The position numbers and the translations under genes are program-made. The notes under the pieces are model-generated. The model did no database searches, was not told the origin of the DNA, and worked only from the letters and a program-made list of their open reading frames with translations. From the NCBI RefSeq assembly GCF_035084215.1, contig NC_090352.1:31620001-31684000 (forward strand): DNA of 64,000 bases, read 5' to 3'. Positions 6,383 through 39,104 of this stretch are shown here, piece after piece. This DNA is from Heptranchias perlo (lineage: Eukaryota). The first letter of the stretch is position 1. Each line of letters starts with the position of its first letter.

Positions 6383-6601
6383 CCATGATGTAGAGATGCC
6401 GGTGATGGACTGGGGTGGACAAATGTAAAGAGTCTCACAACACCAGGTTATAGTCCAACAGCTTTATTTGAAATCACACGCTTTCGGAGCTTTGCTGCTT
6501 CGTCAGGTGAGTGGCCTCACCTGACAAAGGAGCAAAGCTCCGAAAGCTTGTGATTTCAAATAAAGCTGTTTGACTATAACCTGGTGTTGTGAGACTCCTT
6601 A
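6383..6601. mobile_element. Short palindromic non-autonomous Penelope pLTR derivative with two inverted hammerhead motifs
   Basis: Inverted arms are centred on about 6513. A 12-bp TSD, TAAATGTAGTGT, lies at 6371-6382 and 6602-6613. The sequence matches the tail of the 37.9-39.2 kb element. Confidence 0.85.
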
Positions 6602-6924
6602 TAAATGTAGTGTGTTATTTCTAGGGCAATACAGAGATGCAGTAGAGTGCTTCAGTACTCCAAAGGTGTGGTGCTTGGTTCCTCATGGAGAGGTAAATAG
6701 GTGCGTGGGTCACCCGTGCCTGTTCCCACACACCTGACGACTAGATCTAGAACAGAATTTGCAAAGACCTTGGAGCCGACTGTGGTCAAGGAGATGGGAA
6801 GATGAGCGACCTGCTGCCAAACCTCCAGCAATTCCACTTTGTGTCAGACATTTAGAAGAAAAGTAAGACTAGCACATGAATTAATATTTATCCTGTGGGG
6901 AATTATCTGTCCTATTTTCTGAAG

Positions 6925-7230
6925 TTGCACATAGGCGCAAACAGCAATGAGATAAATGACCAGTTAATCTGATTCAGTGGTGTGGGTTAAAGGAGTAATG
7001 TTGCCCGGGATACAAGGAGAGCTCCTCTGCATTTCTTCAAGTAATGCCGTGGGACCTTTTGCGCCCACTTGAGCAGGAAGACGGATTCTTAGGTTAATGT
7101 CTCATTCAAAAGATGACACTTCAGTATAAAGTGTCAATCTAGATGACATGCTCATTTCCCTGGAGTGGAGCTTGAACCCATTAACTTCTGACTTAGAGCC
7201 ATGAATGTTGCCTCTGAGCCAAGCCTGACA
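6925..7230 (-). mobile_element. tRNA-derived DeuSINE/SacSINE1-like SINE, degenerate
   Basis: Similar to the reverse complement of the copy at 37340, including B-box CTTGAACCC and the Deu-like GGGACCTTTT segment. Confidence 0.65.
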
Positions 7231-9649
7231 CTTGGATGAAAAATGGATATTTGATACAAATTTGTTTGTTGTATGCACTTAGTCACAAACTGCTGCAGTG
7301 TCCAGAAAAATAACGCCCTAAAAAGGAACAATCTCCAATTGACCGTACCGTACGTTGATATAGAAAGGAGCCTGACAGAAGGGAGTGATTTAACTGCCTA
7401 TTTTGCTAAATAATTGTTTGATATATTTTGAATGTGGAAATCAAACAATACCTCATTTGACAAAATATTTTATCTTTAAATTCAGTTTAAATATTATAGC
7501 TCCACGGCAGCTGCTAATCTAAATGCTTTTGACACTTTGCTAAGTGCAGCACAGAGGGCAAAGGTGAATATAAATTGTCCCTTTAAAACACTTCGTAGGG
7601 ATGTTGCTGTTTCATGGATTCTGTGTTTAATGGGCTAGTTACAATTTCCTGTTCATAAAGTGCAGAATCTTTTTCTCTTCAATTATGATCTGTTAGTCTG
7701 GGAAGCAATTAACTTTCTGTTTGTGTACCAATCACGTCCAGTAAGTGTCACATTTACTTCCTGCAACATTTTCCCCCATCAACCTGGTTGTTAACACCCT
7801 TACTATAAGATAGCATGTTCTCTGACTCACCATGAGCAATGCCACAGGAGACCTGCTAATATATGTTTATGTACATTAATATGTAAGAACATTCTTGCAG
7901 CTAGCATGTATTTGTCACAAATGTCACACTTAGAATTTCTATAGATGCAAAACAATCATTTAAAAAAAAACGCAAGAAAACCAGTCGTTGAGCTGGAGTC
8001 TGAAATTTACAAGTTACAATTGCCCTCAGATTGACTTCAGTTTATACATAAATACAATTATCTGGGTTGCCTTTTCTGTGTAGTGCATTTAAAGGCACAG
8101 ACAAGGCTAGCAGTTAAACAGTACAACTGTGCTCGAGACTCCAGACTGCAGTTAAACAATGCCGCTGGTATCACTAAAGAAGTAGAACTGCATTGTTCAT
8201 AAACGCGTCTGAACTTGCTCGCTTGAGTTTTAATGTGGGTACCTTTCTACAGCAGTGTAGCATACCACAGCTGAGGCCTTCAGTCCTATTGTACTTCATG
8301 AAGTCAGTTTGTGAATATGGAGCACCACGGTTCAAACATATTTACATCGCAGTGATTTAGTGTGACAACTAATAACAAGCATATCTAAAACCTTTCACAA
8401 CAGTAATAATTAGCATTTGGTCTTTTAAAAAGCTTCAATTAGTATGCGATAAGACCATTGTAATATTGTGACATGCTGATGTGTAGAAAGCCTTTCGCAT
8501 TTTATTTTCTATTGTAATAAAAAAAAACAGTTGGAATTCTACAGTAAAGAACGTACAGTGAATGAATAGCTCTCGAGTAGAGAAAAAGCTTATTGTTGGA
8601 GCATTTGGAAACATTTCCTGGAAAGAGCACAGTATTTGATATAATTCATTGTTAAAGTTCTGCATTTTTCATTTTTTTTTGTGAAAGTTCCCTTGGAATT
8701 TTTCAGGGTTCTGAACTGGGAACAATGCCGGGGTGGGGAAACGTGGGTAAGAGAGACAAAATGTTAGCAGAAGTTGGGGAATAAAGTTATCTTGCACAGT
8801 TGAAAAGGGTTGTTTTCATTCTCAGTATCTTCTCTTTATTTATGTGTGTGTAAAAGGCAGAAATGTTATACTAGGACCACCTTAACAATCGGAATGCAGA
8901 GCAAGACCAGAAAGTGCAGGCGTTTCGGAAGCTAGAAGCAGCATTTGATGATCAAATCCAGGTAAAGTAAATGGAAAAGGGGTTTTTAACTCAAGAATGG
9001 AACACCAAAAAGGAGTGAAAAATCGAGGGGAAAGAGGTTTTTCAATGGAAACAGAAAATGTGGAGCCTTATAAAAATTGCATTATTGTGATAGTTTAAAC
9101 AGTAATTGTGTCACCTTTTTAAAAAAATAACGTTCCTGACATTTTCCCCAATTTTTTTAAACTAAAGGTAAATTGTGCAAATTGGCTGCCATGTTAACCT
9201 ACATAACTGAGTTACTACACTTCACGAGAAATTCATTGGCTGTAAAGCACTTTGTGTCATCCCGAGGATGTGAAAGATGCTATAGAAATGCAAGGTCTTC
9301 ATTTCATAACTATGTAATATGGGTGAAGGATGATAAGTCTCTGTAATAGGGATCAATTTCCTGCAGCTGTATCATAGCAAATGGAAAGATGCCCATTTGC
9401 AGCCATCATATACCCGAGCTCTGCCAGGATGCCGTTAACATTTGTTTCTTGTGCTCTACTGCTCTGTGCCAAGTTCCAGACTTGTGCTGTAACCACAAGA
9501 TACCCAGTGGGAATATCATTTGACAATGCACTCTGGACTGTCCTGTGCTTCCTAGCTCAATAGTGTATAGTCAGAGGCATAGAAGCCCAATGAGTTTTAG
9601 AATAGGGCCCAAAAAGAGAGCAGAAAATATATAAATGAGGCAAGGGAAA

Positions 9650-11357: not shown

Positions 11358-11919
11358 CATTACCTTGGTTTCAAGGTGTCGATGTAAGAACGTACCTAGC
11401 CCTGTGATTCAATACTCCAGTATGTTCCATTTTGGGCCAAGACAGCCATATGAAATTAATTCAAGACCCTCTGCAGTGATGATAACCCTCATTGGCAATA
11501 GATAAACATTGGATTTATATTACAGAACTATTTTTAACTGCAGAGGTTCTGTAATAGACTTGACTGCAAGTGCAGTCTGCCCCATTTACATTGTGAGGGA
11601 GATTTCGCAGCACTTGCACAATACAGCCATTTTGAGAGTCGTGTATCAGCTAGGAGGAAATCCATGCAGGTGATGTGCAAACCATATCATTCCCCTAAAC
11701 CAGAAGGCTAAGCATACAGTTCATCCAAGGGAAGATAAGGTAAAGGTTGACATTACCTGAGGCACTGTTTACACTGCTGCTCTGGTACTCGTACTTCCTG
11801 AGGAGCCTGGGAAAATCTCCTCCTGAGATGAGTCTAGGCAGTTGTTCCAGAGGAAGGGCTGCTTACCTTACTTAAATCAGCAAAGTGAGGGCTATCATGA
11901 ACCAGTATTGTAAGGTAAT

Positions 11920-12103: not shown

Positions 12104-12189
12104 TAATTAATATAAGCTACTTTTAAAGAAACGTAATTGTGTTCTACGAAGAGGATACTCAACAGGAAGCTGGAATATGGAGCAGAGTT

Positions 12190-12875
12190 GCAGCAGTGTG
12201 CAGTTTTGGGCTCCATACTATAGGAAGGACTTTGATACAATAGAGAGAGTACAGTGCAGATTCACTAGGATACTGGCTGGTATGAGGAAGCACAAATAGG
12301 AAGAAAGACTTTGAAAAATTAGGGTTTTTTTCATTAGAACAGAAGAGATTAAGGGATGCTTTGAAAGAGATGTTTAAAATTATGACAGGATGGTACATAG
12401 TAGATAGAAACAGATTATTTCCAGTGATTGAGGGGTCCAGAACAAGGGGACATCGATTTAAGATTAAATGGAAGAGATTTAGGACAGGGAGTAGAAGAAA
12501 CATTTTTATATAGAGGGCGGTGCAGCTGTGAAGTAGAAACCATGTCAATGTTTAAGAATAGGTTAGATGGATGGTTGAAGTAAAGGGATACTGAAACAGA
12601 TCAGGCACAAGGGATTAATACTACTGCTCATTTAGAGGATAAACACCAACATGGACAGGTCGGGCTGAATGGCCTATTTAATAAATAAAAAATAAAGTGC
12701 TGGAGAAGCTCAGCAAGTGAGGCAGCATCTGTGGAGAAAGAAACAGAGTTAACATTTCAGGTCGAAGACCTTTTGTCAGACGTCCCCAGCATTTTGTTTT
12801 TATTTCAGATTTCCAGCATCTGCAGTATTTTGCTTTTGATTTTGAATGGCCTATTTCCTTGTTGTAATTCTATGC
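12190..12875 (+). mobile_element. Old CR1 3' fragment, interrupted by the insertion at 12680-12842
   Basis: GTGCAGTTTTGGGCTCCA, GAACAGAAGAGATTAAGGGA and AGGGGACATCGATTTAAG correspond to the CR1 C-terminal coding region. Confidence 0.75.
12680..12842. mobile_element. Short partly palindromic element with a decayed hammerhead motif, probably a PLE pLTR derivative
   Basis: 14-bp TSD TGAATGGCCTATTT at 12666-12679 and 12843-12856. The minus strand reads CTGACAA-A-AGGTC-TTC-GACCT-GAAA-TG-TT. Confidence 0.7.
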
Positions 12876-12966
12876 CTATACAGTGGTGATCAATTCCTGA
12901 TTTAAATAGGTATCGTGTCTGTTGCAAGTGTAAATGAGGTGTTAACTCAGCTCTCTTAGATGATTA

Positions 12967-15965
12967 TTGTAAACAATTTTACAACACCAAGTTATAGTCC
13001 AGCAATTTTATTTTAAATTCACAAGCTTTCGGAGGCTTCCTCCTTCGTCAGGTAAATGTTCAGGAGCTCCTTGAAGCCTACGCATTTATACATCACAGAA
13101 CAATACATGGTGTTTACAGACTGCCCCTGCAACTGCCCGTTGCCAAGGCAATCACCGTGTTCAGACAGAGAGGTGTCACCTGCAGAACCCCCGAATACAC
13201 ATTCAACAAAAAAACAAACAGGAAAAAAAAACAGAGAGAGGCAGAAACATCCGGAAGGCAGAGAAAGCCAGCAAATGACCCATTATATTAAAAACAGATA
13301 ACATTTGTTCGCTAGTGGGGTAACGTGTAGCGTGACATGAACCCAAGATCCCGGTTGAGGCCGTCCTCATGGGTGCGGAACTTGGCTATCAATTTCTGCT
13401 CGACGATTTTGCGTTGTCGTGTGTCTCGAAGGCCGCCTTGGAGTACGCTTACCCGAAGGTCGGTGGATGAATGTCCATGACTGCTGAAGTGTTCCCCGAC
13501 TGGGAGGGAACCCTCCTGTTTGGCGATTGTTGCGCAGTGTCCGTTCATCCGTTGTCGCAGCGTCTGCATGGTCTCGCCAATGTACCATGCTCTGGGGCAT
13601 CCTTTCCTGCAACGTATGAGGTAGACAACGTTGGCCGAGTCACAGGAGTATGAACCATGCACCTGGTGGGTGGTGTCCTCTCGTGTGATGGTGGTATCTG
13701 TGTCGATGATCTGGCATGTCTTGCAGAGGTTACCGTGGCAGGGTTGTGTGGTGTCGTGGACGCTGTTCTCTTGAAAGCTAGGTAATTTGCTGCGAACGAT
13801 GGTCTGTTTGAGGTTGGGTGGCTGTTTAAAGGCGAGTAGTGGAGGTGTGGGGATGGCCATAGCGAGGTGTTTGTCCTCATTGATGACATGTTGAAGGCTG
13901 CGGAGAACATGGCGTAGTTTCTCCGCTCCGGGGAAGTACTGGACGACAAAGGGTACTCTGTTGGTTGCGTCCCGTGTTGGTCTCCTGAGGAGGTCTATGC
14001 GATTTTTTGCTGTGGCCCGTCGGAACTGTCGATCGATGAGTCGAGCGTCATATCCCGTTCTTACTAGGGCGTCTTTCAGCGTCTGTAGGTGTCCATCGCG
14101 TTCCTCCTTGTCTGAGCAGACCCTGTGTATTCGCAGGGCCTGTCCATAGGGGATGGCCTCTTTGACCTGGTTAGGGTGGAAGCTGGAAAAGTGGAGCATC
14201 GTGAGGTTGTCCGTGGGCTTGCGGTAGAGTGAGGTGCTGAGGTGCCCGTCTTTGATGGAGATTCGTGTGTCCAAGAAAGAAACTGATTCTGAGGAGTAGT
14301 CCATGGTGAGCTTGATGGTGGGATGGAACTTGTTGATGCTATCGTGTAGTCTCTTTAGTGATTCCTTGCCGTGGGTCCATAGAAAGAAAATGTCGTCGAT
14401 GTATCTGGTGTATAGTGTTGGTTGGAGGTCTTGTGCAGTGAAGAAGTCCTGCTCGAACTTGTGCATGAAAATGTTGGCGTATTGGGGTGCGAATTTGGTC
14501 CCCATGGCTGTTCCGTGTGTTTGGGTAAAGAACTGGTTATCGAAGGTGAAGACATTGTGATCCAGGATGAAGCGGATGAGTTGTAGGATGGCTTCCGGAG
14601 ATTGGCTGTTGTTGGTGTTGAGTATTGATGCTGTCGCAGCGATGCCGTCATCGTGGGGGATACTGGTGTATAGTGCCGAGACGTCCATCGTGGTGAGAAG
14701 TGTTCCTGGTTCAACTGGTCCGTGGGTACTGAGTTTTTGTAGGAAGTCTGTAGTGTCGCGACAGAAGCTGGGGGTTCCCTGTACGATGGGTTTCAGGATG
14801 CCCTCGATGTATCCAGAGAGGTTCTCACACAGGGTTCCGTTGCCTGATACGATGGGACGTCCGGGTGTGTTGGCTTTGTGTATCTTTGGGAGGCAGTAGA
14901 AGTCTCCCACGCGGGGATCACGTGGGATGAGAGTGCATAGGATGCTTTGAAGGTCTGGATCGAAGGTCTTGATCAGTTTGTTGAGCTGGTGGGTGTGTTC
15001 TTTGGTCGGATCTGCGGGTAACCGTCTGTAGTGTTCCTGGTTGTCCAGTTGTCGGTATGCTTCTTTGCAATAGTCTGTTCTGTTCTGTATGACTATGGCT
15101 CCTCCTTTGTCCGCTGGTTTGATGACGATGTTGCGGTTGGTCTTGAGAGCGTTGATGGCGTTGCGTTGTGCTCGGGTGATATTCTGGACTGTCTTCTGAG
15201 TGCGGCTGATGAATCTGGCATTGACGCATTTCCTGACAGCTTGAGCATACATGTCCAGCTGAGGGCAGCGACCCTCCGGAGGAGTCCAGTTTGACTCTTT
15301 CCTCTTCGGTTGCTGTACCGCGGATCCCTCTGTCTGCTGTTCCGGATCGTCGATTGTCTCATTGGGTTCGCTGCTGAAATCTTGGGGTTTGTGGTAGAAT
15401 TCCCGGAGCCTCATTCTCCTGATGAATTCCTCTGTGTCCGCCGCGAGACTAGTGGGATCCATTTTGGTAGTGGGGCAGAAATTGAGCCCTCGGCTGAGAA
15501 CTTCGATTTCGTCTGCTTGAAGAGTGTGGTCGGATAAATTGACAATAGACTTCCCTGTGGTTGCAACCGTGGTACCAGGGGAAGCTTGGTCGTTGCTGGT
15601 GGTGATGCCGAGTTTCTCAAGCTTCCTGCTCTTGGTTTTCATGTAGGCAGCGTAGTTCCGTTGCCTCGTCTGTTTGGCGGTATAACGTAGCTGGTCTGCT
15701 ATGTCCTGAGTACAGGTTGAGAGTATGGACTCTATCTTGGTTTCGAGGTTGTGGCGTCTGCTGTAGAGTTGGTGTATGAGATGGTTGCGGAGTGTGCGAG
15801 AGGTACGGCGGCAGAGTCTCTCAGCGTAATCCGAGTTGTATGTGGACCTGAGTGGGTTCGTGATCTGGAGTCCTTTCGGGATCTTGTCTGCTTTCTTGCA
15901 GCTCTGTAAAAACTTGATGTCTGTGTCTAAATGCGCGATCTTCTTGGATATCCTTTCCACTGTGT
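12967..15965 (-). mobile_element. Penelope-like retroelement (Neptune-type), near full length, with 3' pLTR
   Basis: Single RT + GIY-YIG ORF followed by a ~340-bp 3' region with a hammerhead motif. A weak candidate TSD, TGATTA, lies at 12961-12966 and 15966-15971. Confidence 0.9.
13017..13057 (-). ncRNA. Minimal type I hammerhead ribozyme motif in the Penelope pLTR
   Basis: Minus strand reads AUUUAC-CUGACGA-A-GGAGG-AAG-CCUCC-GAAA-GC-UU-GUGAAU. Stem I has 6 bp (one G-U), stem II has 5 bp, the core is intact, and the palindrome AAGCUU replaces stem III. Confidence 0.75.
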
Positions 15966-15996
15966 TGATTAGGCTATCAACTGTTGATAGTGCCAT
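13312..15996 (-). CDS. Penelope-like RT + GIY-YIG endonuclease polyprotein, uninterrupted (894 aa from the first ATG)
   Basis: RT motifs IKPADKGG, YCLPKIHK, TMDVSALYTSIP, GTAMGTKFAPQYANIFM and RYIDDIF. A CxxxxCxxC linker (CHGNLCKTC) is typical of the Neptune clade. GIY-YIG segment NVVYLIRC...WYIGET...LRQRMNGH. The ORF-track start at 16014 is TTG; the first ATG is at 15996. Confidence 0.93.
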   Translation of the reverse strand: MALSTVDSLINTVERISKKIAHLDTDIKFLQSCKKADKIPKGLQITNPLRSTYNSDYAERLCRRTSRTLRNHLIHQLYSRRHNLETKIESILSTCTQDIADQLRYTAKQTRQRNYAAYMKTKSRKLEKLGITTSNDQASPGTTVATTGKSIVNLSDHTLQADEIEVLSRGLNFCPTTKMDPTSLAADTEEFIRRMRLREFYHKPQDFSSEPNETIDDPEQQTEGSAVQQPKRKESNWTPPEGRCPQLDMYAQAVRKCVNARFISRTQKTVQNITRAQRNAINALKTNRNIVIKPADKGGAIVIQNRTDYCKEAYRQLDNQEHYRRLPADPTKEHTHQLNKLIKTFDPDLQSILCTLIPRDPRVGDFYCLPKIHKANTPGRPIVSGNGTLCENLSGYIEGILKPIVQGTPSFCRDTTDFLQKLSTHGPVEPGTLLTTMDVSALYTSIPHDDGIAATASILNTNNSQSPEAILQLIRFILDHNVFTFDNQFFTQTHGTAMGTKFAPQYANIFMHKFEQDFFTAQDLQPTLYTRYIDDIFFLWTHGKESLKRLHDSINKFHPTIKLTMDYSSESVSFLDTRISIKDGHLSTSLYRKPTDNLTMLHFSSFHPNQVKEAIPYGQALRIHRVCSDKEERDGHLQTLKDALVRTGYDARLIDRQFRRATAKNRIDLLRRPTRDATNRVPFVVQYFPGAEKLRHVLRSLQHVINEDKHLAMAIPTPPLLAFKQPPNLKQTIVRSKLPSFQENSVHDTTQPCHGNLCKTCQIIDTDTTITREDTTHQVHGSYSCDSANVVYLIRCRKGCPRAWYIGETMQTLRQRMNGHCATIAKQEGSLPVGEHFSSHGHSSTDLRVSVLQGGLRDTRQRKIVEQKLIAKFRTHEDGLNRDLGFMSRYTLPH

Positions 15997-16834
15997 TAAC
16001 CTTGGGTGATTCAATTATGTAATTTTGTCACTTCAACTGTGTTAATTCAGTTGTTAACAATGTCAAGCTCAGTAATAGGGATCAATTTCTTGCTATATCA
16101 TAACAAGGGGAAAGGAGCCCAAAGGTGGCATTTTAGAGGAAGTAGTTTTGCAATATGTTTCCCGTGCTCTGGAACCACTGCACCTTCCCAGCAAACAACT
16201 GCAACTTTGTAATCTGATGAGTCACAATTTGAATTTCTGACCGCGGATCTCTCCTGTTAGTTGGGAAAGATATTTTGATGCCAGCAAAGGGAAAAGCTGA
16301 TTCTGCAGCCAGAAGAAATGGTGCCCAGTGCTGATGGTCGGAGCATTAATGTTTGCAGCAGCATTGCTGTTGTCTTTCAAAGTCATTCTCTGCTCCTTCA
16401 GGGCAGCAGTGCAGCCTCGTATACAGTGGCACTGCCAGACTCGAGAGTTGCCATCGGTGGCAGTGCTGAGTTGCACAGGTCCATACAGGACAGCCTTGGA
16501 GTAAACCACGTCATCATCATCCTCTTAATCTGTGTAAATTAATTTGCATGCTGCGCATGGATTACGAGACAGAGTCTTTGTGCATCTGGCACGGATAGGG
16601 CTTTGAACAGATCTAGTAACTGTACTTAATGGACAATAACTGCTTATATTTATATAGTGCTCCTCATATACAAAGAGAAGCATCAAAGCACTTTGCAGGA
16701 TGGAGAATACAAACAGGACACCGAGCAGAAGGGAAAAGGAGGATAATCGAAAGGCTGTGTGGGTCGGTAGGGGTTGGGCTGAAGGCACAATTAAACTGAA
16801 GGGTTTTTAGGGAGGCTTTTGAATGTAGGGAGGA

Positions 16835-20482: not shown

Positions 20483-20512
20483 ACAGATGGATCCAGTCAA
20501 TTACACGAACAG

Positions 20513-25239: not shown

Positions 25240-25821
25240 CATCGTATAGTGCAGGCAATGAATGTGAGAGTAGTACAGTGCGTCAATGGAATGCAAGTGG
25301 AGCGTAGTGCATCAATAGAAAGGGAGAGTAGCACAGTGCATCAATAGAAAGGGAGAGTAGCACAGTGCATCAATGGAATGTGAGAGTAGCACAGTGCATC
25401 AATGGAATGTGAGAGTAGCACAGTGCGTCAATGGAACGGGAGAGTAGCACAGTGCGTCAATGGAACGGGAGAGTAGCACAGTGCGTCAATGGAACGGGAG
25501 AGTAGCACAGTGCGTCAATGGAATGGGAGAGTAGCACAGTGCGTCAATGGGATGTGAGAGTAGCACAGTGCGTCAATGGAATGTGAGAGTAGCACAGTGC
25601 GTCAATGGAATGTGAGAGTAGCACAGTGCGTCAATGGAATGTGAGAGTAGCACAGTGCGTCAATGGAATGTGAGAGTAGCACAGTGCGTCAATGGAATGT
25701 GAGAGTAGCACAGTGCGTCAATGGAATGGGAGAGTAGCACAGTGCGTCAATGGAATGGGAGAGTAGCACAGTGCGTCAATGGAATGTGAGGGTAGTACAG
25801 TGCGTCAATGGAATGTGAAAG
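25240..25821. repeat. 29-bp minisatellite, left block (~20 units)
   Basis: Tandem units of GAGAGTAGCACAGTGCGTCAATGGAATGT. Confidence 0.97.
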
Positions 25822-28800
25822 TCATGAGTTCAAAACCTGCCACGGCAGCTGGGGAATTTAAATTCAATTAATTAAATAAAATCTGGAATTATAATACTAG
25901 TATCAGTAATGGTAGCCATGAAACTACCGGATTGTCGTAAAAACCCATCTGGTTCACGAATGTCCTTTAGGGAAGGAAACCTGCCTTCCTTACCTGGTCT
26001 GGCTTATATGTGACTCCAGACCCACAGCAATGTGGTTGATTCTTAATTGCCCTCTGAAATAGCCTAGCAAGCCACTCAGTTGTATAACCTCGCTAAAAAT
26101 AAGTCGTCATAAGAGTAAAACCGGATGGACGACCCGGCATCGGACCACGAGGCACCGGACACGACAAAGGCAAACCAAGCCCAGTCGACCCTGCAAAGTC
26201 CTCCTCACTAACATCTGGGGACTTGTGCCAAAATTGGGAGAGCTGTCCCACAGACTAGTCAAGCAACAGCCTGACATAGCCATACTCACAGAATCATACC
26301 TTTCAGCCAACGTCCCAGACTCTTCCATCACCATCCCTGGGTATGTCCTGTCCCACCGGCAGGACAGACCCACCAGAGGTGGCGGTACAGTGATATACAG
26401 TCAGGAGGGAGTGGCCCTGGGAGTCCTCAACATTGACTCTGGTCCCCATGAAATCTCATGGCATCAGGTCAAACATGGGCAAGGAAACCTCCTGCTGATT
26501 ACCACCTACCGTCCTCCCTCAGCTGATGAATCAGTCCTCCTCCATGTTGAACACTACTTGGAGGAAGCACTGAGGGTAGCAATGGCACAGAATGTACTCT
26601 GGGTGGGGGACTTCAATGTCCATCACCAAGAGTGGCTCGGTAGCACCACTACTGATCGAGCTGGCCGAGTCCTGAAGGACATAGCTGCCAGACTGGGCCT
26701 GCAGCAGGTGGTAAGCAAACCAACATGAGGGAAAAACTTACTTGACCTCATCCTCACCAATCTACCTGTCGCAAATGCATCTGTCCATGACAGTATTGGT
26801 AGGAGTGACCACCGCACAGTCCTCGTGAAGACGAAATCCCGTCTTCGCACTGAGGACACCATGTTGTGTGGCACTATCACCGTGCTAAATGTGACAGATT
26901 CAGAATGGACCGAGCAGCACAAAACTGGGCATCCATGAGGCGCTGTGGGTCATCAGCAGCAGCAGAATTGTATTCCAGCACAATCTGTAACCTCATGGCC
27001 CGGCATATTCCTCACTCTACCATTACCAGCAAGCCAGGGGATTAACCCTGGTTCAATGAGGAGTGTAGAAGAGCATGCCAGGAGCAGCACCAGGCGTACC
27101 TAAAAATGAGGTGCCAACCTGGTGAAGCTACAACTCAGGACTACATGCATGCTAAACAGCGGAAGCAACATGCTATAGACAGAGCTAAGCGATTTCACAA
27201 CCAACGGATCAGATAAAAGCTCTGCAGTCCTGCCACATCCAGTCGTGAATGGTGGTGGACAATTAAACAACTAACAGGAGGAGCAGGCTCTGTAAACATC
27301 CCCATTCTCAATGATGGCAGAGTCCAGCACGTGAGTGCAAAAGACAAGGCTGAAGCGTTTGCAACCATCTTCAGCCAAAAGTGCCGAGTGGATGATCCAT
27401 CTCGGCCCCCTCCCAATATCCTCACCATCATAGAAACCAGTCTTCAGCCAATTCGATTCACTCCACATGTTACTAAGGAGCTTTTTCCCTTCGTTGAGGG
27501 TTCTATAACAAGGGGACATAGATTCAAGGTAAAAGGCGGGAGGTTTAGAGGGGATTTGAGAAAGAACTTTTTCACCCAGAGGGTGGTTGGAGTCTGGAAC
27601 TCACTGCCTGAAAGGGTTGTGGAGGCAGGAACCCTCACAACATTCAAGAAGCATTTGGATGAGCACTTGAAATGCCATAGCATACAAGGCTACGGACCAA
27701 ATGCTGGAATATGGGATTAGAGTAGACAGGGCTTGATGGCCGGTGCGGACACGATGGGCCGAAGGGCCTCTATCCGTGCTGTATGACTCTATGACTCTAT
27801 GACTCTATATCAAGAAACGGCTGAGTGCACTGGATACAGCAAAGGCTTTGGGCCCCGACAACAGCCCGGCTGTAGTGCTGAAGACTTGTGCTCCAGAACT
27901 AGCTGCGCCTCTAGCCAAGCTGTTCCAGTACAGCTACAACACTGGCATCTACCCGACAATGTGGAAAATTGCCCAAGTGTGTCCTGTCCACAAAAAGCAG
28001 GACAAATCCAACCCAGCCAATTACCGCCCCATCAGCCTACTCTCAATCATCAGCAAAGTGATGGAAGGTGTCGTCGACAGTGCTATCAAGCGGCACTTAC
28101 TCACCAATAACCTGCTCACCGATGCTCAGTTTGGGTTCCACCAGGACCACTCGGCTCCAGACCTCATTACAGCCTTGGTCCAAACATGGACAAAAGAGCT
28201 GAATTCCAGAGGTGAGGTGAGAGTGACTGCCCTTGACATCAAGGCAGCATTTGACCGAGTGTGGCACCAAGGAGCCCTAGTAAAATTGAAGTCAATGGGA
28301 ATCAGGGGGAAAACTCTCCAGTGGCTGGAGTCATACCGAGCACAAAGGAAGATGATAGTGGTTGTTGGAGGCCAATCATCTCAGCCCCAGGACATCACTG
28401 CAGGAGTTCCTCAGGGCAGTGTCCTAGGCCCAACCATCTTCAGCTGCTTCATCAATGACCTTCCCTCCGTCAAAATGTCAATAATGGGGATGTTCGCTGA
28501 TGATTGCACAGTGTTCAGTTGCATTCGCAACCCCTCAGATAATGAAGCAGTCCATGCCCGCATGCAGCACAACCTGGACAACATCCAGGCTTGGGCTGAT
28601 AAGTGGCAAGTAACATTCATGCCAGAGAAGTGCCAGGCAATGACCATCTCCAACAAGAGAGAGTCTAACCACCTCCCCTTGACATTCAAGGGCAAAACCA
28701 TCGCCGAATCCCCCACCATCAACATTCTGGGGGTCACCATTGACCAGAAACTTAACTGGACTAGCCATATAAATACTGTGGCTACAAGAGCAGGTCAGAG

Positions 28801-29399
28801 TCTGGGTATTCTGTGGCGAGTGACTCACCTCCTGACTCCCCAAAGCCTTTCCACCATCTACAAGGCACAAGTCAGGACTGTGATGGAACACTCTCCACTT
28901 GCCTGGATGAGTGCAGCTCCAACAACAATCAAGAAGCTCGACACCATCCAGGACAAAGCAGCCCGCTTGATTGGCACCCAATCCGCCACCCTAAACATTC
29001 ACTCCCTTCACCACCGGTGCACTGTGGCTGCAGAGTGTACCATCCACAGGATGCACTGCAGCAATTCGCTAAGGCTTGTTTAACAGCACCTCCCAAACCC
29101 GCAACCTCTACCACCTAGAAGGACGAGGGCAGTGGGCACATGGGAACAACACCACCTGCACATTCCCCTCCAAGTCACACACCATCCTGACTATGAATTA
29201 TATCGTCGTTCCTTCATCGTCGCTGTGTCAAAATCCTGGAACTCCCTTCCTAACAGCACTGTTGGAGAACCTTCACCACATGGACTGCAGCGGTTCAAGA
29301 AGGCGGCTCACCACCACCTTCTCAAGTGCATTTAGAGATGGGCAATAAATGCTGGCCTCGCCAGCGACGCCCACAACCCATGAGCAAATATAAAAAAAA
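25822..29399 (+). mobile_element. Near-full-length non-LTR retrotransposon (APE endonuclease + RT, CR1/L2-group), disrupted, inserted into the minisatellite
   Basis: APE motifs LLTNIWGL, DIAILTES, DRPTRGGG and VGDFNVHH. RT motifs NYRPISLL, DIKAAFDRVWH, GVPQGSVLGP and FADDC. The 3' UTR has AATAAA and an A-rich end. Internal stops and frameshifts are present. Confidence 0.93.
27470..27806 (+). mobile_element. Young CR1 3' fragment nested inside the LINE
   Basis: ELFPFVEGSITRGHRFK...WNSLPERVV, then the CR1 tail and (ATGACTCT)n. The host LINE resumes at ATATCAAGAAACGG. Confidence 0.9.
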
Positions 29400-31935
29400 G
29401 AGTGGCACAGTGTGTCAATGGAATGTGAGAATAGCACAGTGTGTCAATGGAATGTGAGAGTAGCACAGTGTGTCAGTGGAATGTGAGAGTAGCACAGTGT
29501 GACAATGGAATGTAAGAGTAGCACAGTGTGTCAGTGGAATGTGAGAGTAGCACAGTGTGTCAGTGGAATGTGAGAGTAGCATAGTGTGTCAGTGGAATGT
29601 GAGAGTAGCACAGTGTGTCAGTGGAATGTGAGAGTAGCATAGTGTGTCAGTGGAATGTGAGATTAGCACAGTATGTCAGTGGAATGTGAGATTAGCACAG
29701 TGTGATAATGGATTGTGAGAGTAGCACAGTATGTCAGTGGAATGTGAGAGTAGCACAGTGTGTCAGTGGAATGTGAGAGTAGCACAGTGTGTCAGTGGAA
29801 TGTGAGAGTAGCATAGTGTGTCAGTGGAATGTGAGATTAGCACAGTATGTCAGTGGAATGTGAGAGTAGCACAGTGTGATAATGGATTGTGAGAGTAGCA
29901 CAGTGTGTCAGTGGAATGTGAGAGTAGCGCAGTGTGTCAGTGGAATATGAGAGTAGCGCAGTGTGTCAGTGGAATGTGAGAGTAGCGCAGTGCGTCAGTG
30001 GAATGTGAGAGTAGCACAGTGCGTCAATGGAATGTGAGAGTAGCGCAGTGTGTCAGTGGAATATGAGAGTAGCGCAGTGTGTCAGTGGAATATGAGAGTA
30101 GCGCAGTGCGTCAGTGGAATGTGAGAGTAGCGCAGTGCGTCAGTGGAATGTGAGAGTAGCGCAGTGCGTCAGTGGAATGTGAGAGTAGCACAGTGCGTCA
30201 ATGGAATATGAGAGTAGCGCAGTGCGTCAGTGGAATGTGAGAGTAGCGCAGTGCGTCAGTGGAATGTGAGAGTAGCACAGTGCGTCAATGGAATGTGAGA
30301 GTAGCACAGTGCGTCAATGGAATGTGAGAGTAGCACAGTGTGTCAGTGGAATGTGAGAGTAGCACAGTGTGTCAGTGGAATGTGAGAATAGCACAGTGTG
30401 TCAATGGAATGTGAGAGTAGCACAGTGTGTCAATGGAATGTGAGTGTAGCACAGTGTGTCAATGCATTGTGAACGTAGCACAGTGTGTCAAAGGAATGTG
30501 AGAGTAGCACAGTGCGTCAGTGGAATGTGAAAGTAGCACAGTGTGTCACTGGAATGTGAGAGTAGCACAGTGTGTCAATGGAGTGAGAGTAGCACAATGT
30601 GTCAATGAAGAGTGAGAATAGCACAGTCTGTCAGTGGAATGTGAGAGTAGCACAGTGTGGCAATGGATTGTGAGAATAGCACAGTGTGGCAATGGATTGT
30701 GAGAATAGCACAGAGCGTCAGTGCAATGTGAGAGTAGCACAGTGTGTCAATGCATTGTGAACGTAGCACAGTGTGTCAAAGGAATGTGAAAGTAGCACAG
30801 TGCGTCAGTGGAATGTGAAAGTAGCACAGTGTGTCAGTGGAATGTGAAAGTAGCACAGTGTGTCAGTGGATTGTGAGAGTAGCACAGTGTGTCAATGGAG
30901 TGAGAGTAGCACAATGTGTCAATGAAGAGTGAGAATAGCACAGTCTGTCAGTGGAATGTGAGAGTAGCACAGTGTCTCAATGGAATGTGAGAGTAGCACA
31001 GAGCGTCAGTGCAATGTGAGAGGAGCACAGTGTGTCAGTGGAATGTGAGAATAGCACAGTGCGTCAGTGCAATGTGAGAGGAGCACAGTGTGTCAGTGGA
31101 TTGTGAGAGTAGCACAGTGTGTCAATGGAGTGTGAGAGTAGCACAGTGTGTCAGTGGAATTTGGGAGTAGCACAATGTGTCACTGGAATGTGAGAGTAGC
31201 ACAGTGTGTCACTGGAATGTGAGAGTAGCACAGTGTGTTAACATAATGTGAGAGTAGCACAGTGTGTCACTGGAATGTGAGAGTAGCACAGTGTGTCAAT
31301 GCATTGTGAGAGTAGCGCAGTGTGTCAGTGGAATGTGAGAGTAGCACAGTGTGTCAATGGAATGTGAGAGTAGCACAGTGCGTCAATGGAATGTGAGAGT
31401 AGCACAGTGTGTCACTGGAATGTGAGAGTAGCACAGTGTGTTAACATAATGTGAGAGTAGCGCAGTGTGTCAGTGGAATGTGAGAATAGCACAGTGTGTC
31501 AATGGAATGTGAGAGTAGCGCAGTGTGTCAGTGGAATGTGAGAGTAGCGCAGTGTGTCAGTGGAATGTGAGAGTAGCGCAGTGTGTCAGTGGAATGTGAG
31601 AGTAGCACAGTGCATCAGCGGAATGTGAGAGTAGCACAGTGCGTCAGTGGAATGTGAGATTAGCACAGTGTATCATGAATTTGAGAGTAGCACAGTGTTT
31701 CAATGAATGTGAGAGTAGCACAGTGTGTCAGTGGAATGTGAGAGTAGCACAGTGCATCAGCAGAATGTGAGAGTAGCACAGTGCGTCAGTGGAATATGAG
31801 AGTAGCACAGTGTATCATGAATGTGAGAGTAGCACAGTGTGTCAATGAATGTGAAAGTAGCACAGAGTGTCAGTGGAATCTGAGAGTAGCACAGTCTGTC
31901 AATGGAATTTGAGAGTAGCACAGTGTGTCAGTGCA
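29400..31935. repeat. 29-bp minisatellite, right block (~87 units)
   Basis: Tandem units of GAGAGTAGCACAGTGTGTCAGTGGAATGT with variant units. Confidence 0.97.
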
Positions 31936-33602: not shown

Positions 33603-33609
33603 CTTGAAA

Positions 33610-34500
33610 GTGTAATACATTGTACTAACGGAATGTGAGTGTAGGACAGTGAGGCTATGAAATGCCAGTGTACGGCAATATAGCTAGAATGAAATATTAG
33701 GCAGAGCAAGCAATAAAACTGAAGTATATGAAGGTGCAGCAATGGAATTGTATAAGATGGTACAGCAATACAATTTAAGTGTTGGTGCATCAGTGTAAAG
33801 TGAGTATAAGATAACAGAGGAAATGTAGAAGAATGCAGCAATGGAATGGAAATATTTGGTTGTACAGCAAAAGGTTAGTGTAATTGGACAGTGCAGCAAT
33901 GGAAATGGAAATGCAGGTCAGTGAAGCTATGAAATGCAAGTGTAAGAGAGTACAGCAATGGAATGGAATCTAGGGCAGAGGAACAACGGCATTGAAGTAT
34001 ACAAAGATGCAACAATGGAATGTGAGTGTAAGGCAATGCAGCAATGTGGTGGAAGTGTTAGTGTAGCTATGAAATGAAAGTGTGATATGTTGACAACAAA
34101 GTGTAATACAGTACAGCAACAGAATGGAAGTGTCGCACAGTGAGGAATGAAGTGAAAGTGTTAGGCAGTGTAGAAATTGAATGCAAGTATTCGACAGAGC
34201 AGCAGTGGGGCGTGGGTGTTGGACGGTATAGTAATGGAAAAGAAGTGTCGGGCAGCACAGTAATCGAACACAAGTGTAGGATTGTGCAATAATGGAACTG
34301 AAATGTCGGACAATGCAGCAATGGAACAAAAGTGTAGAACAGTGTAGCAATGGAATGGAAGTACAGGACAGTGCAACAGTGAAATGTAAATGTAGGAAAG
34401 TGCAGCTGTGGAATAAAAGTGTCGGACAATACAGCAAAGGAAAGGAATAGAATGGAAGTGCAGGGAAATCCAGTAATTGAATGGTGGCAGCAGAACAGTA
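33610..34500. repeat. Highly degenerate relative of the 29-bp minisatellite
   Basis: Recurring AATGGAATG(T/G)..GTGTAG.ACAGTG.AGC at roughly 29-bp spacing. Confidence 0.7.
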
Positions 34501-34734
34501 GGACATAAATTTGAGCACAGTCCTTGGCATGATTAGTTACTGACCTCAGTCGTGCCATCATCAGAAGACATTAAGTGGTGACTGAGCATTTCCCCAGAGT
34601 TAGCCAGGGAAAATCTGAGGAGACTTATCCGAGGCCTCGTAGCCCTGAGAGCCAAATACTTGATAGCGGATCACTGATGAGCCAGAGTTGGTGCCTGATG
34701 GGTTGGTGGTTAATGCATCTCCTGGTGCACTTAC

Positions 34735-35755: not shown

Positions 35756-35756
35756 G

Positions 35757-36105
35757 TGTAGTACTGAACCTTGCAGACAAGGGAGATCCAGGTTTGATCC
35801 CTGATCCGTGATGGGTCAGTTGACCTCATTCAGGTTGGTGGTTAAGATGGTGCAATTGGCCTCAATGTCCCTCTGCTAGGGAAAAGACAAATCTGTACAT
35901 TCACTATTCTGTGAATCCTGTTGGAAAATGGTTTTGTGTAGATGTTGAATGAGAACAGAATCAGGCTCAGCTGTGATGCTGCTCATGGTCTGCTGACACT
36001 GACTGTCTGGACTCACACAATAAGAAAGGGCACTTAGGCAAGGTACTGGAGGATGACCTGTTCTCATGGAACTGAACCCCAGCAAGTGAGTAATTTTCAG
36101 AGCAG
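35757..36105 (+). mobile_element. Ancient tRNA-derived SINE (AmnSINE2-like). Related degenerate copies at ~3200-3395, 23340-23640, 25040-25230, 41225-41355, 45880-46095, 49460-50150, 54520-54710 and 61590-61740
   Basis: Shared blocks CCAGGTTTGATCCCTG, GAGTTAGCTGATCTCAGC, CAATTGGCCTCA and GGCTCAGCTGTGATGC. The family name is from recall and has not been verified by a search. Confidence 0.55.
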
Positions 36106-37339
36106 AGTGGGCAAAAATGAAAATTAAACTCATCTCTTTTATAGGTAGGTAGTATCCGCATCCTAAAATGTGTTAGACATCAATCGATGAACACTATGCA
36201 GGAACAAGTCAGTGTAATGTATGTTCTGCTTGTGAAGCCGACGCACTTCCCGTAAAAGTCCATATGCATCAAAGAATCTCATGCAGTCAGTGCAATGCAT
36301 TCATGCACATTGTTGAATCATTGGCTTACAAGTGCAGTAAGGGTTGAGTTGATTTATGCAGAGCACATACAGAGAGAACATTGTAAGGATTATGTAGATT
36401 TAACTTGCCTGTTCTTCCGTCAGTGCCATGACACTTTATGAGAGTTCAGGTAAAACCAGTTAAAGTCATTCTAACCCAGTTCCAGCTATGTTTTTATTGG
36501 TCTTACAAAGACCCTAGTATTGCAAAATGTCCGTCACTCATTAGTCAGTGGTAGCAGTGTTGTTTGAAGAGCTGTGTATCATAAAAACTGCCTAAGACCA
36601 ATATAATTGGGTTTACTTTTGAACAGCTTTATTAGCCACCGTGTTGTTTCTTTAAATATATATATATTATTGTGATGCAATGCGAAATGCATGAGGTGTA
36701 GTTTAGCTGCTTGGAGTCATGATGCTAAAATAAAAGTTTTGCTGATATGAGGGAAAAATCAGGTTAGTAAAACTGATATATTTTTTAAAATGTTTTACTT
36801 TTTTTCCATGGAAGAATTTTTCCGAGTAATTTCTCCCTTTTTCTGTAATTTTTCTCCCCTTTTTTCTTTGTTCATCTCATCTGACACACAGCCAAAAGAG
36901 TGGGCGCATAGTCTACTGGTCCCAATGGCCCTCTAACCAGCTGCTGGGCAGTAGCAGGGGCCACCCAGGTGTGACTCTCCTCTTTAACCTTCTGGTACTC
37001 CCTGCTGAGAGACACAGCTCAGATTCCCAATCCTGCTGAGTTCCCGTTATCAACTGTGGCACCATGAAGATCTGCCAGGCAGATGAGCATCTCCAAACAC
37101 AGAGGGATGTCAAGAGGAGAGCTGTTTCTGACACATTCCCTTGGTGTATTGTTCAAAGGTTCCATTCTGCTCTCAACTCAGGGTGGTGTCTGGCTTGGGG
37201 AGAAAAATAAGAAGGCAAGCACTCTAAAAGGCAGATACGTTGGTATATTGACTTAACTAATGCTGTTCTTTAGCTAGCAATGCACGAGAACAACCTGAGT
37301 TGACTTGTCTGTCGGTTTCTTCCTGTCTCCCTGGCTGTG

Positions 37340-37803
37340 GTCAGCCATGACTCAGTGGTAGCATTCTTACCTCTGAGTCAGAAGGTTGTGGGTTCAAGTC
37401 CCACTGCAGAGACTTGAGCACAAATTCTAGGCTGATACTTTTGGTGCAGTGGTGAGGGAGTGCTGCACTGTTGGAGGTATCTTTCAGATGAGATGTTAAA
37501 CCGAGGCCCCGCCTGTTCTCTCAGGTGGACGTAAAAGATCCCATGGCACTATTTGAAGAACAGGGGAGTCCTCCCTGGTGCCCTAGCCAATATTTATCTC
37601 TCAACCCACATCACTAATACAGATTGTCTGGTCATTTATTTCATTGCTTTTTGTGGGACCTTGCTGTACACAAATTGGCTGCCACATTTCTTACATTACA
37701 ACCGTGACTACACTTCAAAACTACTTCATTGGTTGTAAAGCACTTTGGGATGTCCTGACGTCGTGAAAAGCGCTAAATAAATGCAAGTCATGTTTCTTTT
37801 CTT
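37340..37803 (+). mobile_element. Full-length tRNA-derived DeuSINE (SacSINE1-like)
   Basis: A-box-like TGACTCAGTGG and B-box GGTTCAAGTCC; Deu-like GTAAAAGATCCCATGGCACT; L2-like tail AAATGCAAGT. Confidence 0.85.
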
Positions 37804-37890
37804 TGATTGGGAACTCATTTAGGAGACTAAGGCTGAAGTTGCAAGCAGCCCTTCTGCTGTTTTCACCTGCAGATCTACCTAAATGTGAAA

Positions 37891-37927
37891 TCACAAGCTT
37901 TCGGAGCTTTGCTTCTTCATCAGGTGA
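37891..37927 (-). ncRNA. Minimal hammerhead motif (left arm)
   Basis: UCAC-CUGAUGA-A-GAAGC-AAA-GCUCC-GAAA-GC-UU-GUGA; one stem-II mismatch. Confidence 0.6.
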
Positions 37928-39067
37928 GTGAAGGGTTACATAAAGGCACAGCATATATAGTCAGAGAACAATGCCTGGAGATTACAGATAATCTTTCTAA
38001 CTGCCCTTTATCACACCTCGGCAGAGAGATAATCACAGCAATCAAAGGAGTGAATGGTGTTCAGACAGGTTGGTCAGGGAAACATTACATCCAAGAATAC
38101 TGAATACACAAGGGGTCAAATCACAAAGACAGAGAGAGAGAGAGAGAGAGACCAGAAAGACAGAGAGAGAGAGAGAGAGAGAGATAGAATGACCAGTTGT
38201 ATTAAAAACAGATAACTTTTTTTCGCTGTATATGGAGAACAAACCAACTACGACTTGAGTCTGGATGACTCTACGTCAGGTGGGGTTACATGTAGCGTGA
38301 CATGAACCCATGATCCCAGTTGAGGCCGTCCTCATGGGTGCGGAACTTGGCTATCAATTTCTGCTCGACGATTTTGCGTTGTCGTGTGTCTCGAAGGCCG
38401 CCTTGGAGAACGCTTACCCAAAGATCGGAGGCTGAATGTCTTTGACTGCTGAAGTGTTCCCCGACTGGGTACATTGGCGAGACCATGCAGACACTGCTAC
38501 AATGGATGAACGGACACCGCACAACAATCGCCAGACAGGAGGGTTCCCTCCCAGTCGGGGAACACTTCAGCAGTCAAGGACATTCAGCCTCTGATCTTTG
38601 GGTAAGTGTTCTCCAAGGCGGCCTTCGAGACACACGACAACGCAAAATCGTCGAGCAGAAATTGATAGCCAAGTTCCGCACCCATGAGGACGGCCTCAAC
38701 CGGGATCTTGGGTTCATGTCACGCTACATGTAACCCCACCTGACGTAGAGTCATCCAGACTCAAGTCGTAGTTGGCTTGTTCTCCATACACAGCGAAAAA
38801 AAGTTATATGTTTTTAATACAACTGGTCATTCTCTCTCTCTGTCTTTCTGGTCTCTCTCTCTCTGTCTTTGTGATTTGACCCCTTGTGTACTCAGTATTC
38901 TTGGATGTAATGTTTCCCTGACCAACCTGTCTGAACACCATTCACTCCTTTGATTGCTGTGATTATCTCTCTGCCGAGGTGTGATAAAGGGCAGTTAGAA
39001 AGATTATCTGTAATCTCCAGGCATTGTTCTCTGACTATATATGCTGTGCCTTATTGTAACCCTTCAC

Positions 39068-39104
39068 TCACCTGACGAAGGAGCAAAACTCCGAAAGCTT
39101 GTGA
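39068..39104 (+). ncRNA. Minimal hammerhead motif (right arm)
   Basis: UCAC-CUGACGA-A-GGAG-CAAAA-CUCC-GAAA-GC-UU-GUGA. Confidence 0.65.

What the first reader, a model, noticed from the sequence alone, without database searches (positions are those of the whole stretch)
6474..39104. A covarying family of atypical minimal hammerhead ribozymes links an autonomous Penelope to its non-autonomous satellites
Seen: the same architecture (CUGANGA, an extra A, a 4-5-bp stem II, GAAA, a palindromic A-GC-U or A-(C/U)G-U, then U) occurs at 13017-13057(-), 37891-37927(-), 39068-39104(+), 6474-6510(-), 6517-6553(+) and 12748-12779(-). A relic occurs at 38740-38763(+), mirrored at about 38256-38279(-). Stem II has four different but pairing sequences: GGAGG/CCUCC, GGAGC/GCUCC, AGGUC/GACCU and GAGUC/GACUC. 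Stem I also changes while pairing (AUUUAC/GUGAAU versus UCAC/GUGA). Established: Penelope-like elements carry minimal type I hammerheads in their pLTRs, with a palindromic stem III thought to allow dimeric cleavage. Inference: this variant has an extra A before stem II, only a 2-nt helix-III loop and a UU cleavage site. It may be a poorly characterised chondrichthyan form that standard descriptors would miss, and it may mark many short palindromic repeats as ribozyme-bearing retroelements.
Basis: partly seen in the sequence, partly recalled or inferred. Interest (0 to 1): 0.8.

Follow-up and report, generated by a model that had tools for sequence, protein, structure and literature searches.

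The report
Known minimal ribozymes in Penelope retrotransposons
These short motifs are real self-cleaving-RNA sequences at the ends of a very common jumping gene, but they match a type described in 2014, and the copies here are truncated insertions rather than a new kind of element.

Summary
The motifs are real and far above chance (37,364 genome matches vs 21 control). They are not atypical. The extra A, absent helix-III loop, palindromic 15.2-16.2 pair and UU site all fit the published minimal hammerhead of Penelope-like elements (Cervera & de la Peña 2014); a turtle example ends in the same G-C-U-U. Only 2 of the 8 listed sites pass a strict descriptor. The sites mix three sources: family A (5 sites), an unrelated family B (1), and a dead B-like fragment carried by one family-A subfamily (2). 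The window's 'autonomous' copy lacks its 5' pLTR and natural start codon. The 'satellites' are single truncated/inverted insertions with 12-bp target duplications. Intact tandem elements and a true 404-bp retrozyme-like array exist elsewhere in the genome; that link is also in print. Only one base pair covaries well. Cleavage was not testable. This scan reached the same verdict on another genome (e1-7857333). More interesting, in passing: a second Penelope-like family forms near-identical 7.7-kb tandem arrays beside telomeric repeats.

The parts
12966..15964 (-). Family-A Penelope-like element, 5'-truncated: no 5' pLTR and the first ~11 codons missing; ends at the short 3' end without tail
   Evidence: 98.1% identical over 3017 nt to a full-length unit in L177, match starts at 15964; junction shown; no ribozyme upstream
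13312..15964 (-). Open frame encoding RT plus CX4CxxC linker plus C-terminal GIY-YIG endonuclease; the in-frame ATG near 15995 lies in host flank
   Evidence: 900-aa stop-to-stop frame; RVT_1 E=2.2e-10; GIY-YIG E=1.1e-4, 22.8 bits vs cut-off 22.6; linker and DKG motif
13085..13090 (-). TATA-like box of the pLTR, about 40 nt upstream of the ribozyme core (promoter role inferred)
   Evidence: sequence; TATA-to-tail pattern has 25,239 genome matches vs 0 control
13017..13057 (-). Intact family-A minimal hammerhead; predicted cut between 13023 and 13022
   Evidence: strict descriptor hit, stem I 6 bp, stem II 5 bp; fold
13007..13012 (-). AATAAA 10 nt downstream of the predicted cut (poly(A) signal inferred)
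   Evidence: sequence
12680..12845 (-). Separate family-B insertion: 3' end plus inverted tail, 11-bp target duplication; contains the decayed hammerhead at 12748-12779
   Evidence: target duplication; family-B contexts in 30 loci; 3,405 intact matches
12748..12779 (-). Decayed family-B minimal hammerhead (G8->A, 15.2 C->U, 5' stem-I strand lost)
   Evidence: fails both descriptors
6383..6601 (.). One family-A insertion: pLTR 3' end with long tail on the minus strand plus an inverted truncated copy; 12-bp target duplication
   Evidence: self-alignment; target duplication; tail ends at the family's ATG
6474..6510 (-). Mutated family-A hammerhead (U16.1->G, stem-II mismatch)
6517..6553 (+). Mutated family-A hammerhead (G8->A)
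37888..39193 (.). One family-A insertion (relic-bearing subfamily): 5'-truncated copy on plus, inverted copy on minus, 12-bp target duplication
   Evidence: 90% self-palindrome over 1265 nt; target duplication
38468..38739 (+). 3' end of the RT-endonuclease ORF inside the palindromic element (mirrored in part at 38279-38469 minus)
   Evidence: 94% identity to 13315-13586 and to the full-length unit
38740..38763 (+). Dead family-B-like hammerhead just after the stop codon; start of a 79-nt captured cassette, shortened by 28 nt in this copy
   Evidence: 452 genome matches vs 0 control; present/absent alleles; alignment to a family-B 3' end scores 65.5 vs shuffled max 47.5 of 500
38256..38279 (-). 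Mirror copy of the relic in the inverted arm
37891..37927 (-). Family-A hammerhead of the inverted arm, core intact, one stem-II mismatch
   Evidence: relaxed descriptor
39068..39104 (+). Family-A hammerhead, core intact, 4-bp stem II; followed by AATAAA and the long tail
   Evidence: strict descriptor; sequence

Best explanation
The motifs are the standard minimal type I hammerheads (min-HHR) in the pLTRs of endonuclease-containing Penelope-like retroelements. In an intact tandem element the pLTR reads TATA box, ribozyme, AATAAA, small hairpin, tail, then the ATG of the RT-GIY-YIG frame (shown as sequence). A transcript begun in one pLTR and ended in the next carries a ribozyme at each end (inferred). 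One ribozyme alone cannot form helix III. Two copies can pair through the AGCU palindrome into a 4-bp shared helix III, or the element's own protein can assist folding, giving slow, conditional cleavage after GAAAGCUU (inferred from published work on other PLEs; not shown here). The likely role is occasional processing or damping of precursor RNA, while uncut RNA serves as the reverse-transcription template. The eight window sites are passengers in truncated or inverted genomic insertions, decaying neutrally. Selection acted only on the source elements.
For: Published consensus matches feature by feature. Copy number is 37,364 vs 21 control. Three intact 902-aa frames lie head-to-tail at 3083-bp period with four ribozymes at G000:C1:188.73-188.74 Mb. 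Spacing there: TATA to core 40 nt, cut to AATAAA 10 nt, cut to ATG 92 nt. In 120 copies found without requiring the core, the 11 core positions differ in 16 of 1320 cells, whereas the free position N7 is G65/C50/T5 and the fifth stem-II pair switches among G-C, C-G, A-U and G-U. Copies keep the uncut ribozyme plus downstream sequence. Reading by eye, 0 of 30 loci carrying the ORF start begin exactly at the cut site. This agrees with the Anolis Poseidon result that uncut RNA is the main template and that cleavage needs the protein. Target duplications and 5' inversions are the known PLE insertion pattern.
Against: No cleavage or expression was shown. Covariation is thin: only pair 10.5-11.5 has many two-sided changes (23 of 70 rows), and 20 of 70 rows do not pair there. 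The two measures that count pairs or pair types were reached by 73 and 75 of 500 shuffles. The family is young (median end branch 0.013), so part of the core conservation is recent ancestry. The free dimer fold preferred swapped stem II (-27.3 kcal/mol). A 6-bp AAGCUU duplex that ties up A14 and U17 (-20.7) scored below my half-dimer model of the active form (-18.3); only half the dimer was modelled. Published min-HHRs cleave poorly in vitro, and 8 of 9 Xenopus retrozyme dimers showed no cleavage.
Confidence: 0.72

Rival explanations
1. Same identity, but the fold is kept for a non-catalytic job (binding of the element's protein, RNA folding or translation control) and cleavage in vivo is negligible.
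For: Ribozyme mutants did not reduce insertion in vitro, and no RNA-seq reads began or ended at the cut in Anolis. Naiad PLEs thrive without canonical hammerheads. Genomic copies retain the uncut site.
Against: The positions conserved across subfamilies include the catalytic core while N7 varies. A related PLE ribozyme did cleave with protein and was rescued by the C3G/G8C double change.
Confidence: 0.18
2. One reading: an atypical, lineage-specific hammerhead variant that defines non-autonomous satellites dependent on the adjacent autonomous element.
For: Rfam finds no hammerhead. A search for chondrichthyan + Penelope + ribozyme returned 0 papers, and shark + Penelope + hammerhead ribozyme returned 1 review in which 'shark' refers only to the motif's shape. 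A 404-bp array with 10 ribozymes exists at G000:C2:21.27 Mb.
Against: Every 'atypical' trait is in the 2014 consensus, including a turtle motif with the same extra A and G-C-U-U ending. The window copies are not tandem and have target duplications. The 13-kb copy is not autonomous. The retrozyme-PLE link is in print and that survey included one chondrichthyan.
Confidence: 0.05
3. The motif is a neutral relic in this family: conserved only because copies are recent, with no selection on the fold.
For: Young family. Loop position L2 is as invariant as the core. Weak covariation outside one pair.
Against: The spacer between the TATA box and stem I differs widely among subfamilies while the core does not (listing). 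Stem-I changes are mostly wobble-compatible. The one ribozyme that did lose function in a source element, the relic, took four core changes. Families A, B and D share only core and fold.
Confidence: 0.05

Closest known systems
Minimal hammerheads (min-HHR) in pLTRs of metazoan Penelope-like elements (Cervera & de la Peña 2014, PMC4209133)
   Same: CUGANGA plus one extra H, stem II opened by G10.1-C11.1, GAAA, palindromic 15.2-16.2 with no loop, NUH site, short helix I, pLTR location, thousands of solo copies, pairs on opposite strands. The Chrysemys motif ends G-C-U-U after an extra A; the Petromyzon motif has the same UCAC/GUGA helix I.
   Different: Sequence family and host. No shark or Callorhinchus entry in the searchable supplementary file 2 (file 1 could not be searched). 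Exact-match count (37,364, excluding N7=G subfamilies) exceeds the 4,000-9,000 reported for coelacanth and Xenopus. Family B opens stem II with A-U, as does Latimeria(2) in the same figure.
Neptune/Nematis-type endonuclease-containing PLEs (Craig et al. 2021, PMC8557442)
   Same: Single RT plus C-terminal GIY-YIG frame with a CX2-5CxxC linker, partial tandems, inverted 5'-truncated copy, optional 30-40-nt tail.
   Different: No reference phylogeny was run, so Neptune versus Nematis was not settled.
Poseidon_Ac (PAc) hammerhead of Anolis (PMC11167929)
   Same: PLE minimal ribozyme near the pLTR-ORF junction; two alternative 3' ends separated by a tail.
   Different: In PAc the start codon lies inside the ribozyme; here it is 92 nt downstream of the cut.
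Non-LTR retrozymes (PMC7229834; bioRxiv 10.64898/2026.07.22.740005)
   Same: The 404-bp, 10-ribozyme array at G000:C2:21.27 Mb is a tandem, non-coding pLTR derivative.
   Different: The window's elements are single inverted insertions, not tandem arrays.

Membership tests
PLE minimal hammerhead (min-HHR) | Core CUGANGA ... GAAA ... NUH | tested here: met
   Intact at 13017(-), 39068(+) and 37891(-); broken in the other 5 of 8 sites; 16 of 1320 core cells differ in 120 unascertained copies
PLE minimal hammerhead (min-HHR) | One unpaired nucleotide (H) between positions 9 and 10.1 | tested here: met
   A in 120 of 120 copies; published as conserved
PLE minimal hammerhead (min-HHR) | No monomeric helix III; palindromic 15.2-16.2 | tested here: met
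   AGCU in family A, ACGU in families B and D
PLE minimal hammerhead (min-HHR) | G10.1-C11.1 closing pair and paired stem II | tested here: met
   Family A: G-C in 66 of 70 distinct rows. Family B uses A-U, an exception also seen in the published alignment
PLE minimal hammerhead (min-HHR) | Short helix I closing a type I topology | tested here: met
   4-6 bp; inner three pairs formed in 66-69 of 70 rows; outer two pairs often unpaired
PLE minimal hammerhead (min-HHR) | Located in both pLTRs of a PLE | tested here: met
   Full-length tandem units in L177 and L179; the window copy has only the 3' one
PLE minimal hammerhead (min-HHR) | Self-cleavage as dimer or with protein help | not testable with these tools
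   Needs a bench assay; no raw RNA reads were available
Endonuclease-containing PLE (Neptune/Nematis type) | RT plus C-terminal GIY-YIG in one frame, with CX2-5CxxC linker | tested here: met
   the GIY-YIG hit is marginal (22.8 vs 22.6 bits) and appears only when the C-terminal 162 aa are scanned alone
Endonuclease-containing PLE (Neptune/Nematis type) | Placement in the Neptune clade by RT phylogeny | not tested
   No reference PLE sequences were on hand
Autonomous PLE copy (13-kb element) | 5' pLTR and natural start codon present | tested here: not met
   Match to the full-length unit starts at 15964, about 11 codons in; no upstream ribozyme
Non-LTR retrozyme / satellite (window elements) | Head-to-tail tandem units each with a ribozyme | tested here: not met
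   No tandem array at these places; inverted single insertions with target duplications. Met only by L176 elsewhere in the genome
Rfam hammerhead families | Match to an Rfam hammerhead covariance model | tested here: not met
   0 of 8 matches at E<=10 are hammerheads

The most novel reading that the evidence does not exclude
The helix-III palindrome works as a family-specific pairing code (AGCU in family A, ACGU in B and D), so only like ribozymes activate each other. In addition, the B-type ribozyme captured just after the stop codon of one family-A subfamily was selectively silenced: four core changes with stem II left perfect, fixed before about 450 copies spread. That would be a natural experiment showing that these weak ribozymes do cut in vivo and that an extra cut in the 3' UTR harms transposition, which bears on the open question of what PLE hammerheads do. 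Support: homoduplex -4.9 and -4.1 vs heteroduplex -0.9 kcal/mol; relic fixed and forming one clade, 97/90 support, on a short branch among relic-free subfamilies. Against: no intact parent found (0 matches), the tree root is midpoint only, and four changes can be neutral decay.
Probability: 0.15. Interest if true: 0.5.

Novelty: new member of a known kind. Interest (0 to 1): 0.2.

Why it matters
As a discovery it matters little: the ribozyme type, its place in PLE pLTRs and its link to non-autonomous arrays are published. Its value is as test material. This genome holds tens of thousands of copies in datable subfamilies, intact tandem elements, a 404-bp ten-ribozyme array and a captured dead ribozyme. 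Together these would allow a clean test of whether PLE minimal hammerheads cut in vivo, which remains open.

Tried and rejected
Rfam scan: no hammerhead family among 8 matches. Intact parent of the relic: 0 matches. A first pattern with a 4-nt gap found only 13 copies because most copies have 5. A pattern for tail-to-ORF junctions built from the window's apparent start found 2 matches that were not ORF junctions; the true start was found. AT-type palindrome families: 1,361 matches vs 481 control; by eye the first 100 are chance hits and decayed ACGU copies, so no separate family is claimed. Sequencing runs: no RNA holder listed among 22 rows. Laying 4 of them (contigs only) showed no splice-like joint in the pLTR and cannot show RNA ends, so my idea of an intron between the cut and the ATG is untested. 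ORF-end tree of 43 of 62 sequences could not root the relic (74/75 support); the pLTR tree of 61 did better. My note gave the relic cassette as 83 nt; counting gives 79. No covariance model or R-scape run: dead copies are not independent events, so covariation was counted on 70 distinct rows instead. Lünse, Weinberg & Breaker on PLE hammerhead dimers was not held; I saw only its title and a review passage. Supplementary file 1 of PMC4209133 and the bioRxiv supplements, which may list chondrichthyan families, were not seen.
Full report
Observation. Hammerhead-like sequence is present at all eight places, but the copies are less uniform than reported. My descriptor, built from the published minimal-hammerhead consensus, found 2 strict hits in the window (13017-13057 minus, 39068-39104 plus) against a mean of 0.0 in 20 dinucleotide shuffles. 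It found 4 relaxed hits against a mean of 0.15, maximum 1. The copies at 6517 and 12748 have G8->A, 6474 has U16.1->G, 37891 has a stem-II mismatch, and the two relics have no GAAA. Rfam listed 8 matches at E<=10, none a hammerhead. In the window's own genome (3.25 Gb) a core-only pattern gave 37,364 matches against 21 for the reversed control. That pattern excludes subfamilies with G at N7, which made up 65 of 120 copies in a sample not selected on the core, so the true number is higher (inference).

The traits called atypical are the published norm. Cervera and de la Peña (PMC4209133; I read parts 1-2 of 4 of the text and part 2 of 3 of supplementary file 2) define a min-HHR without helix III or loop 3. 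They list the extra nucleotide between 9 and 10.1 and the palindromic 15.2-16.2 pair as conserved features, and report pairs on opposite strands 100-700 bp apart. Their consensus is CUGANGAH, stem II, GAAAN, palindrome, NUH. The turtle entry has an extra A and ends G-C-U-U, and the lamprey entry has the UCAC/GUGA helix I. The '2-nt loop' is therefore the 15.2-16.2 pair of a shared 4-bp helix formed between two copies, and UU is an ordinary NUH site.

What the window copies are. The frame at 13312-16014 (minus) encodes an RT (E=2.2e-10), a CX4CxxC linker and a marginal GIY-YIG hit, which is the layout of Neptune/Nematis-type PLEs (passages of PMC8557442). It is not an autonomous copy. It matches a full-length unit at 98.1% only from 15964 on, so the first ~11 codons and the 5' pLTR are missing, and the nearby ATG is host flank. 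The 38-39-kb palindrome contains the last 272 nt of the ORF region at 94% identity and is bounded by a 12-bp target duplication. The 6.4-kb palindrome also has a 12-bp duplication, and the family-B remnant at 12.7 kb an 11-bp one. Each is a single 5'-truncated insertion with an inverted 5' copy, the known PLE pattern, and none is a tandem satellite. True autonomous-looking tandems (three 902-aa frames, four ribozymes, 3083-bp period) and a true 404-bp ten-ribozyme array exist elsewhere in the genome.

Three sources, not one family. Five sites belong to family A. The 12748 site belongs to family B (3,405 intact matches vs 0 control), which has a different pLTR. RT fragments near family-B loci are only 27-49% identical to family A. 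Its UG is CpG-type decay of CG (inference). The relic is a 79-nt cassette just after the stop codon, seen with the GGAGC/GCUCC stem II in all but variant copies of the 23 relic rows and absent from the other 38 rows. It has 452 genome matches, nearly all with the same dead sequence, and aligns to a family-B 3' end (score 65.5; shuffled maximum 47.5 of 500). Relic carriers form one clade (97/90) on a short branch among relic-free subfamilies. I read this as capture of a B-like 3' end by one source element (about 80% likely; the root is midpoint only, and the ORF-end tree did not settle it). No intact parent was found.

Conservation and covariation. Of 167 distinct tail-anchored copies, 143 aligned without gaps and 120 were not selected on the core (64 locus clusters; the match allowed at most 5 substitutions, so heavily decayed copies drop out). 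In these the 11 core positions differ in 16 of 1320 cells, the extra A is invariant, and N7 is G65/C50/T5. On 70 distinct rows, 85.8% of cells pair (shuffled 82.1%, 0 of 500 as high; slid controls 26-47%). The signal rests on pair 10.5-11.5 (G-C 24, C-G 14, A-U 9, G-U 3, unpaired 20). Stem-I changes are mostly one-sided wobbles, and the measures that count pairs or pair types were reached by 73 and 75 of 500 shuffles. Because the rows are related and the family is young, this is support for a maintained fold, not proof.

How it most likely works. Shown as sequence: in the intact unit a TATA-like box lies 40 nt before the core, AATAAA 10 nt after the predicted cut, and the ATG 92 nt after it. 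The TATA-to-tail arrangement occurs 25,239 times. Inferred: transcription starts just before the ribozyme, so an RNA spanning two pLTRs has one at each end. The two can share a 4-bp AGCU helix III, or the element's protein may assist folding as shown for the Anolis element (PMC11167929, passages and section 3 part 2). Also inferred: the RNA that is reverse-transcribed is mostly uncut, since copies retain the site and the sequence beyond it, and by eye 0 of 30 loci with the ORF start begin at the cut. Cleavage is therefore probably slow and conditional. Against activity: nearest-neighbour folding preferred inactive dimers over my half-dimer model, published min-HHRs cut weakly, and 8 of 9 frog dimers did not cut. 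The window copies themselves are probably inert.

Novelty. This is a new member of a known kind. Searches for shark or chondrichthyan PLE ribozymes returned one irrelevant hit and none, so this family may be undescribed in the library searched. The taxon label is itself recalled and not tested here. Other papers seen as passages only: PMC6765202, PMC6155905, PMC7229834. The boldest reading left open is that the palindrome is a like-with-like pairing code and that the captured ribozyme was selectively silenced (15%). The most surprising thing met on the way lies outside the finding: a different PLE family in near-identical 7.7-kb arrays beside telomeric repeats.

Noticed in passing
G000:C4:141.42-141.86 Mb (L134-L137, L234), C1:198.12-198.29 Mb (L140, L141), C5:0.06-0.19 Mb (L138, L139, L236), also C6, C7, C9, C10 and C1:0.93-1.02 Mb: A second Penelope-like family (D) forms head-to-tail arrays of ~7.7-kb units, 95-100% identical between chromosomes. 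Most arrays lie within ~0.3 Mb of contig ends, two about 1 Mb in. Each unit has its own minimal hammerhead (7-bp stem I, ACGU), a 754-aa ORF1 (weak GDSL/SGNH hit, E=0.011, below cut-off), a 744-aa RT plus GIY-YIG ORF2 and degenerate CCCTAA-like repeats after ORF2. Units are interleaved with TTAGGG runs; on C1 the array joins more than 13 kb of TTAGGG, though that contig continues ~270 kb further. This looks like an endonuclease-containing PLE adding itself at telomeres. Three paper searches listed nothing on it; Repbase and subscription journals were not searched. It deserves its own follow-up.
   Followed up: partly
G000:C1:188733000-188745000 (L177, L178) and C1:4460000-4469999 (L179): Full-length family-A tandems: three intact 902-aa frames with four ribozymes at 3083-bp period in L177; two intact frames in L179. 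An exact 31-base word from the ORF start has 870 genome matches.
   Followed up: yes
G000:C2:21272900-21276600 (L176): 404-bp tandem array with 10 identical ribozymes; each unit is part of the pLTR plus the first ~130 nt of the ORF, a retrozyme-like derivative.
   Followed up: partly
window 12966-12981(-) and equivalents in other copies: A small hairpin at the short 3' end differs between subfamilies yet still appears to pair; it may be the reverse-transcription start stem-loop, by analogy with PAc.
   Followed up: no
window 37876-37887 and 6371-6382: Both family-A target duplications contain TAAATGT, whose reverse complement resembles the element's own short-end junction; possible target preference or priming microhomology.
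   Followed up: no
L177 position 3524, run X18 (organism G): Contigs of another organism show the relic cassette as a loose end at the same place, with a different 3' part (9 contigs, agreement 0.84), hinting that the capture predates the species split.
   Followed up: no
window 1343-2188(+): Last coding exon of a METTL16-like gene (PDB 6m1u, E=6.4e-43). The frame at 55549-56133(+) looks like an MNT exon by recall only (no Pfam hit).
   Followed up: partly
window 25248-25822, 29399-31933, 34098-34442: Three arrays of a 29-bp minisatellite; the first two flank a LINE-type element with AP-endonuclease and RT frames at 26063-29083.
   Followed up: no
window 49342-49430(-): tRNA-like stretch below Rfam's threshold (25.6 vs 29 bits), probably a SINE head or pseudogene.
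   Followed up: no
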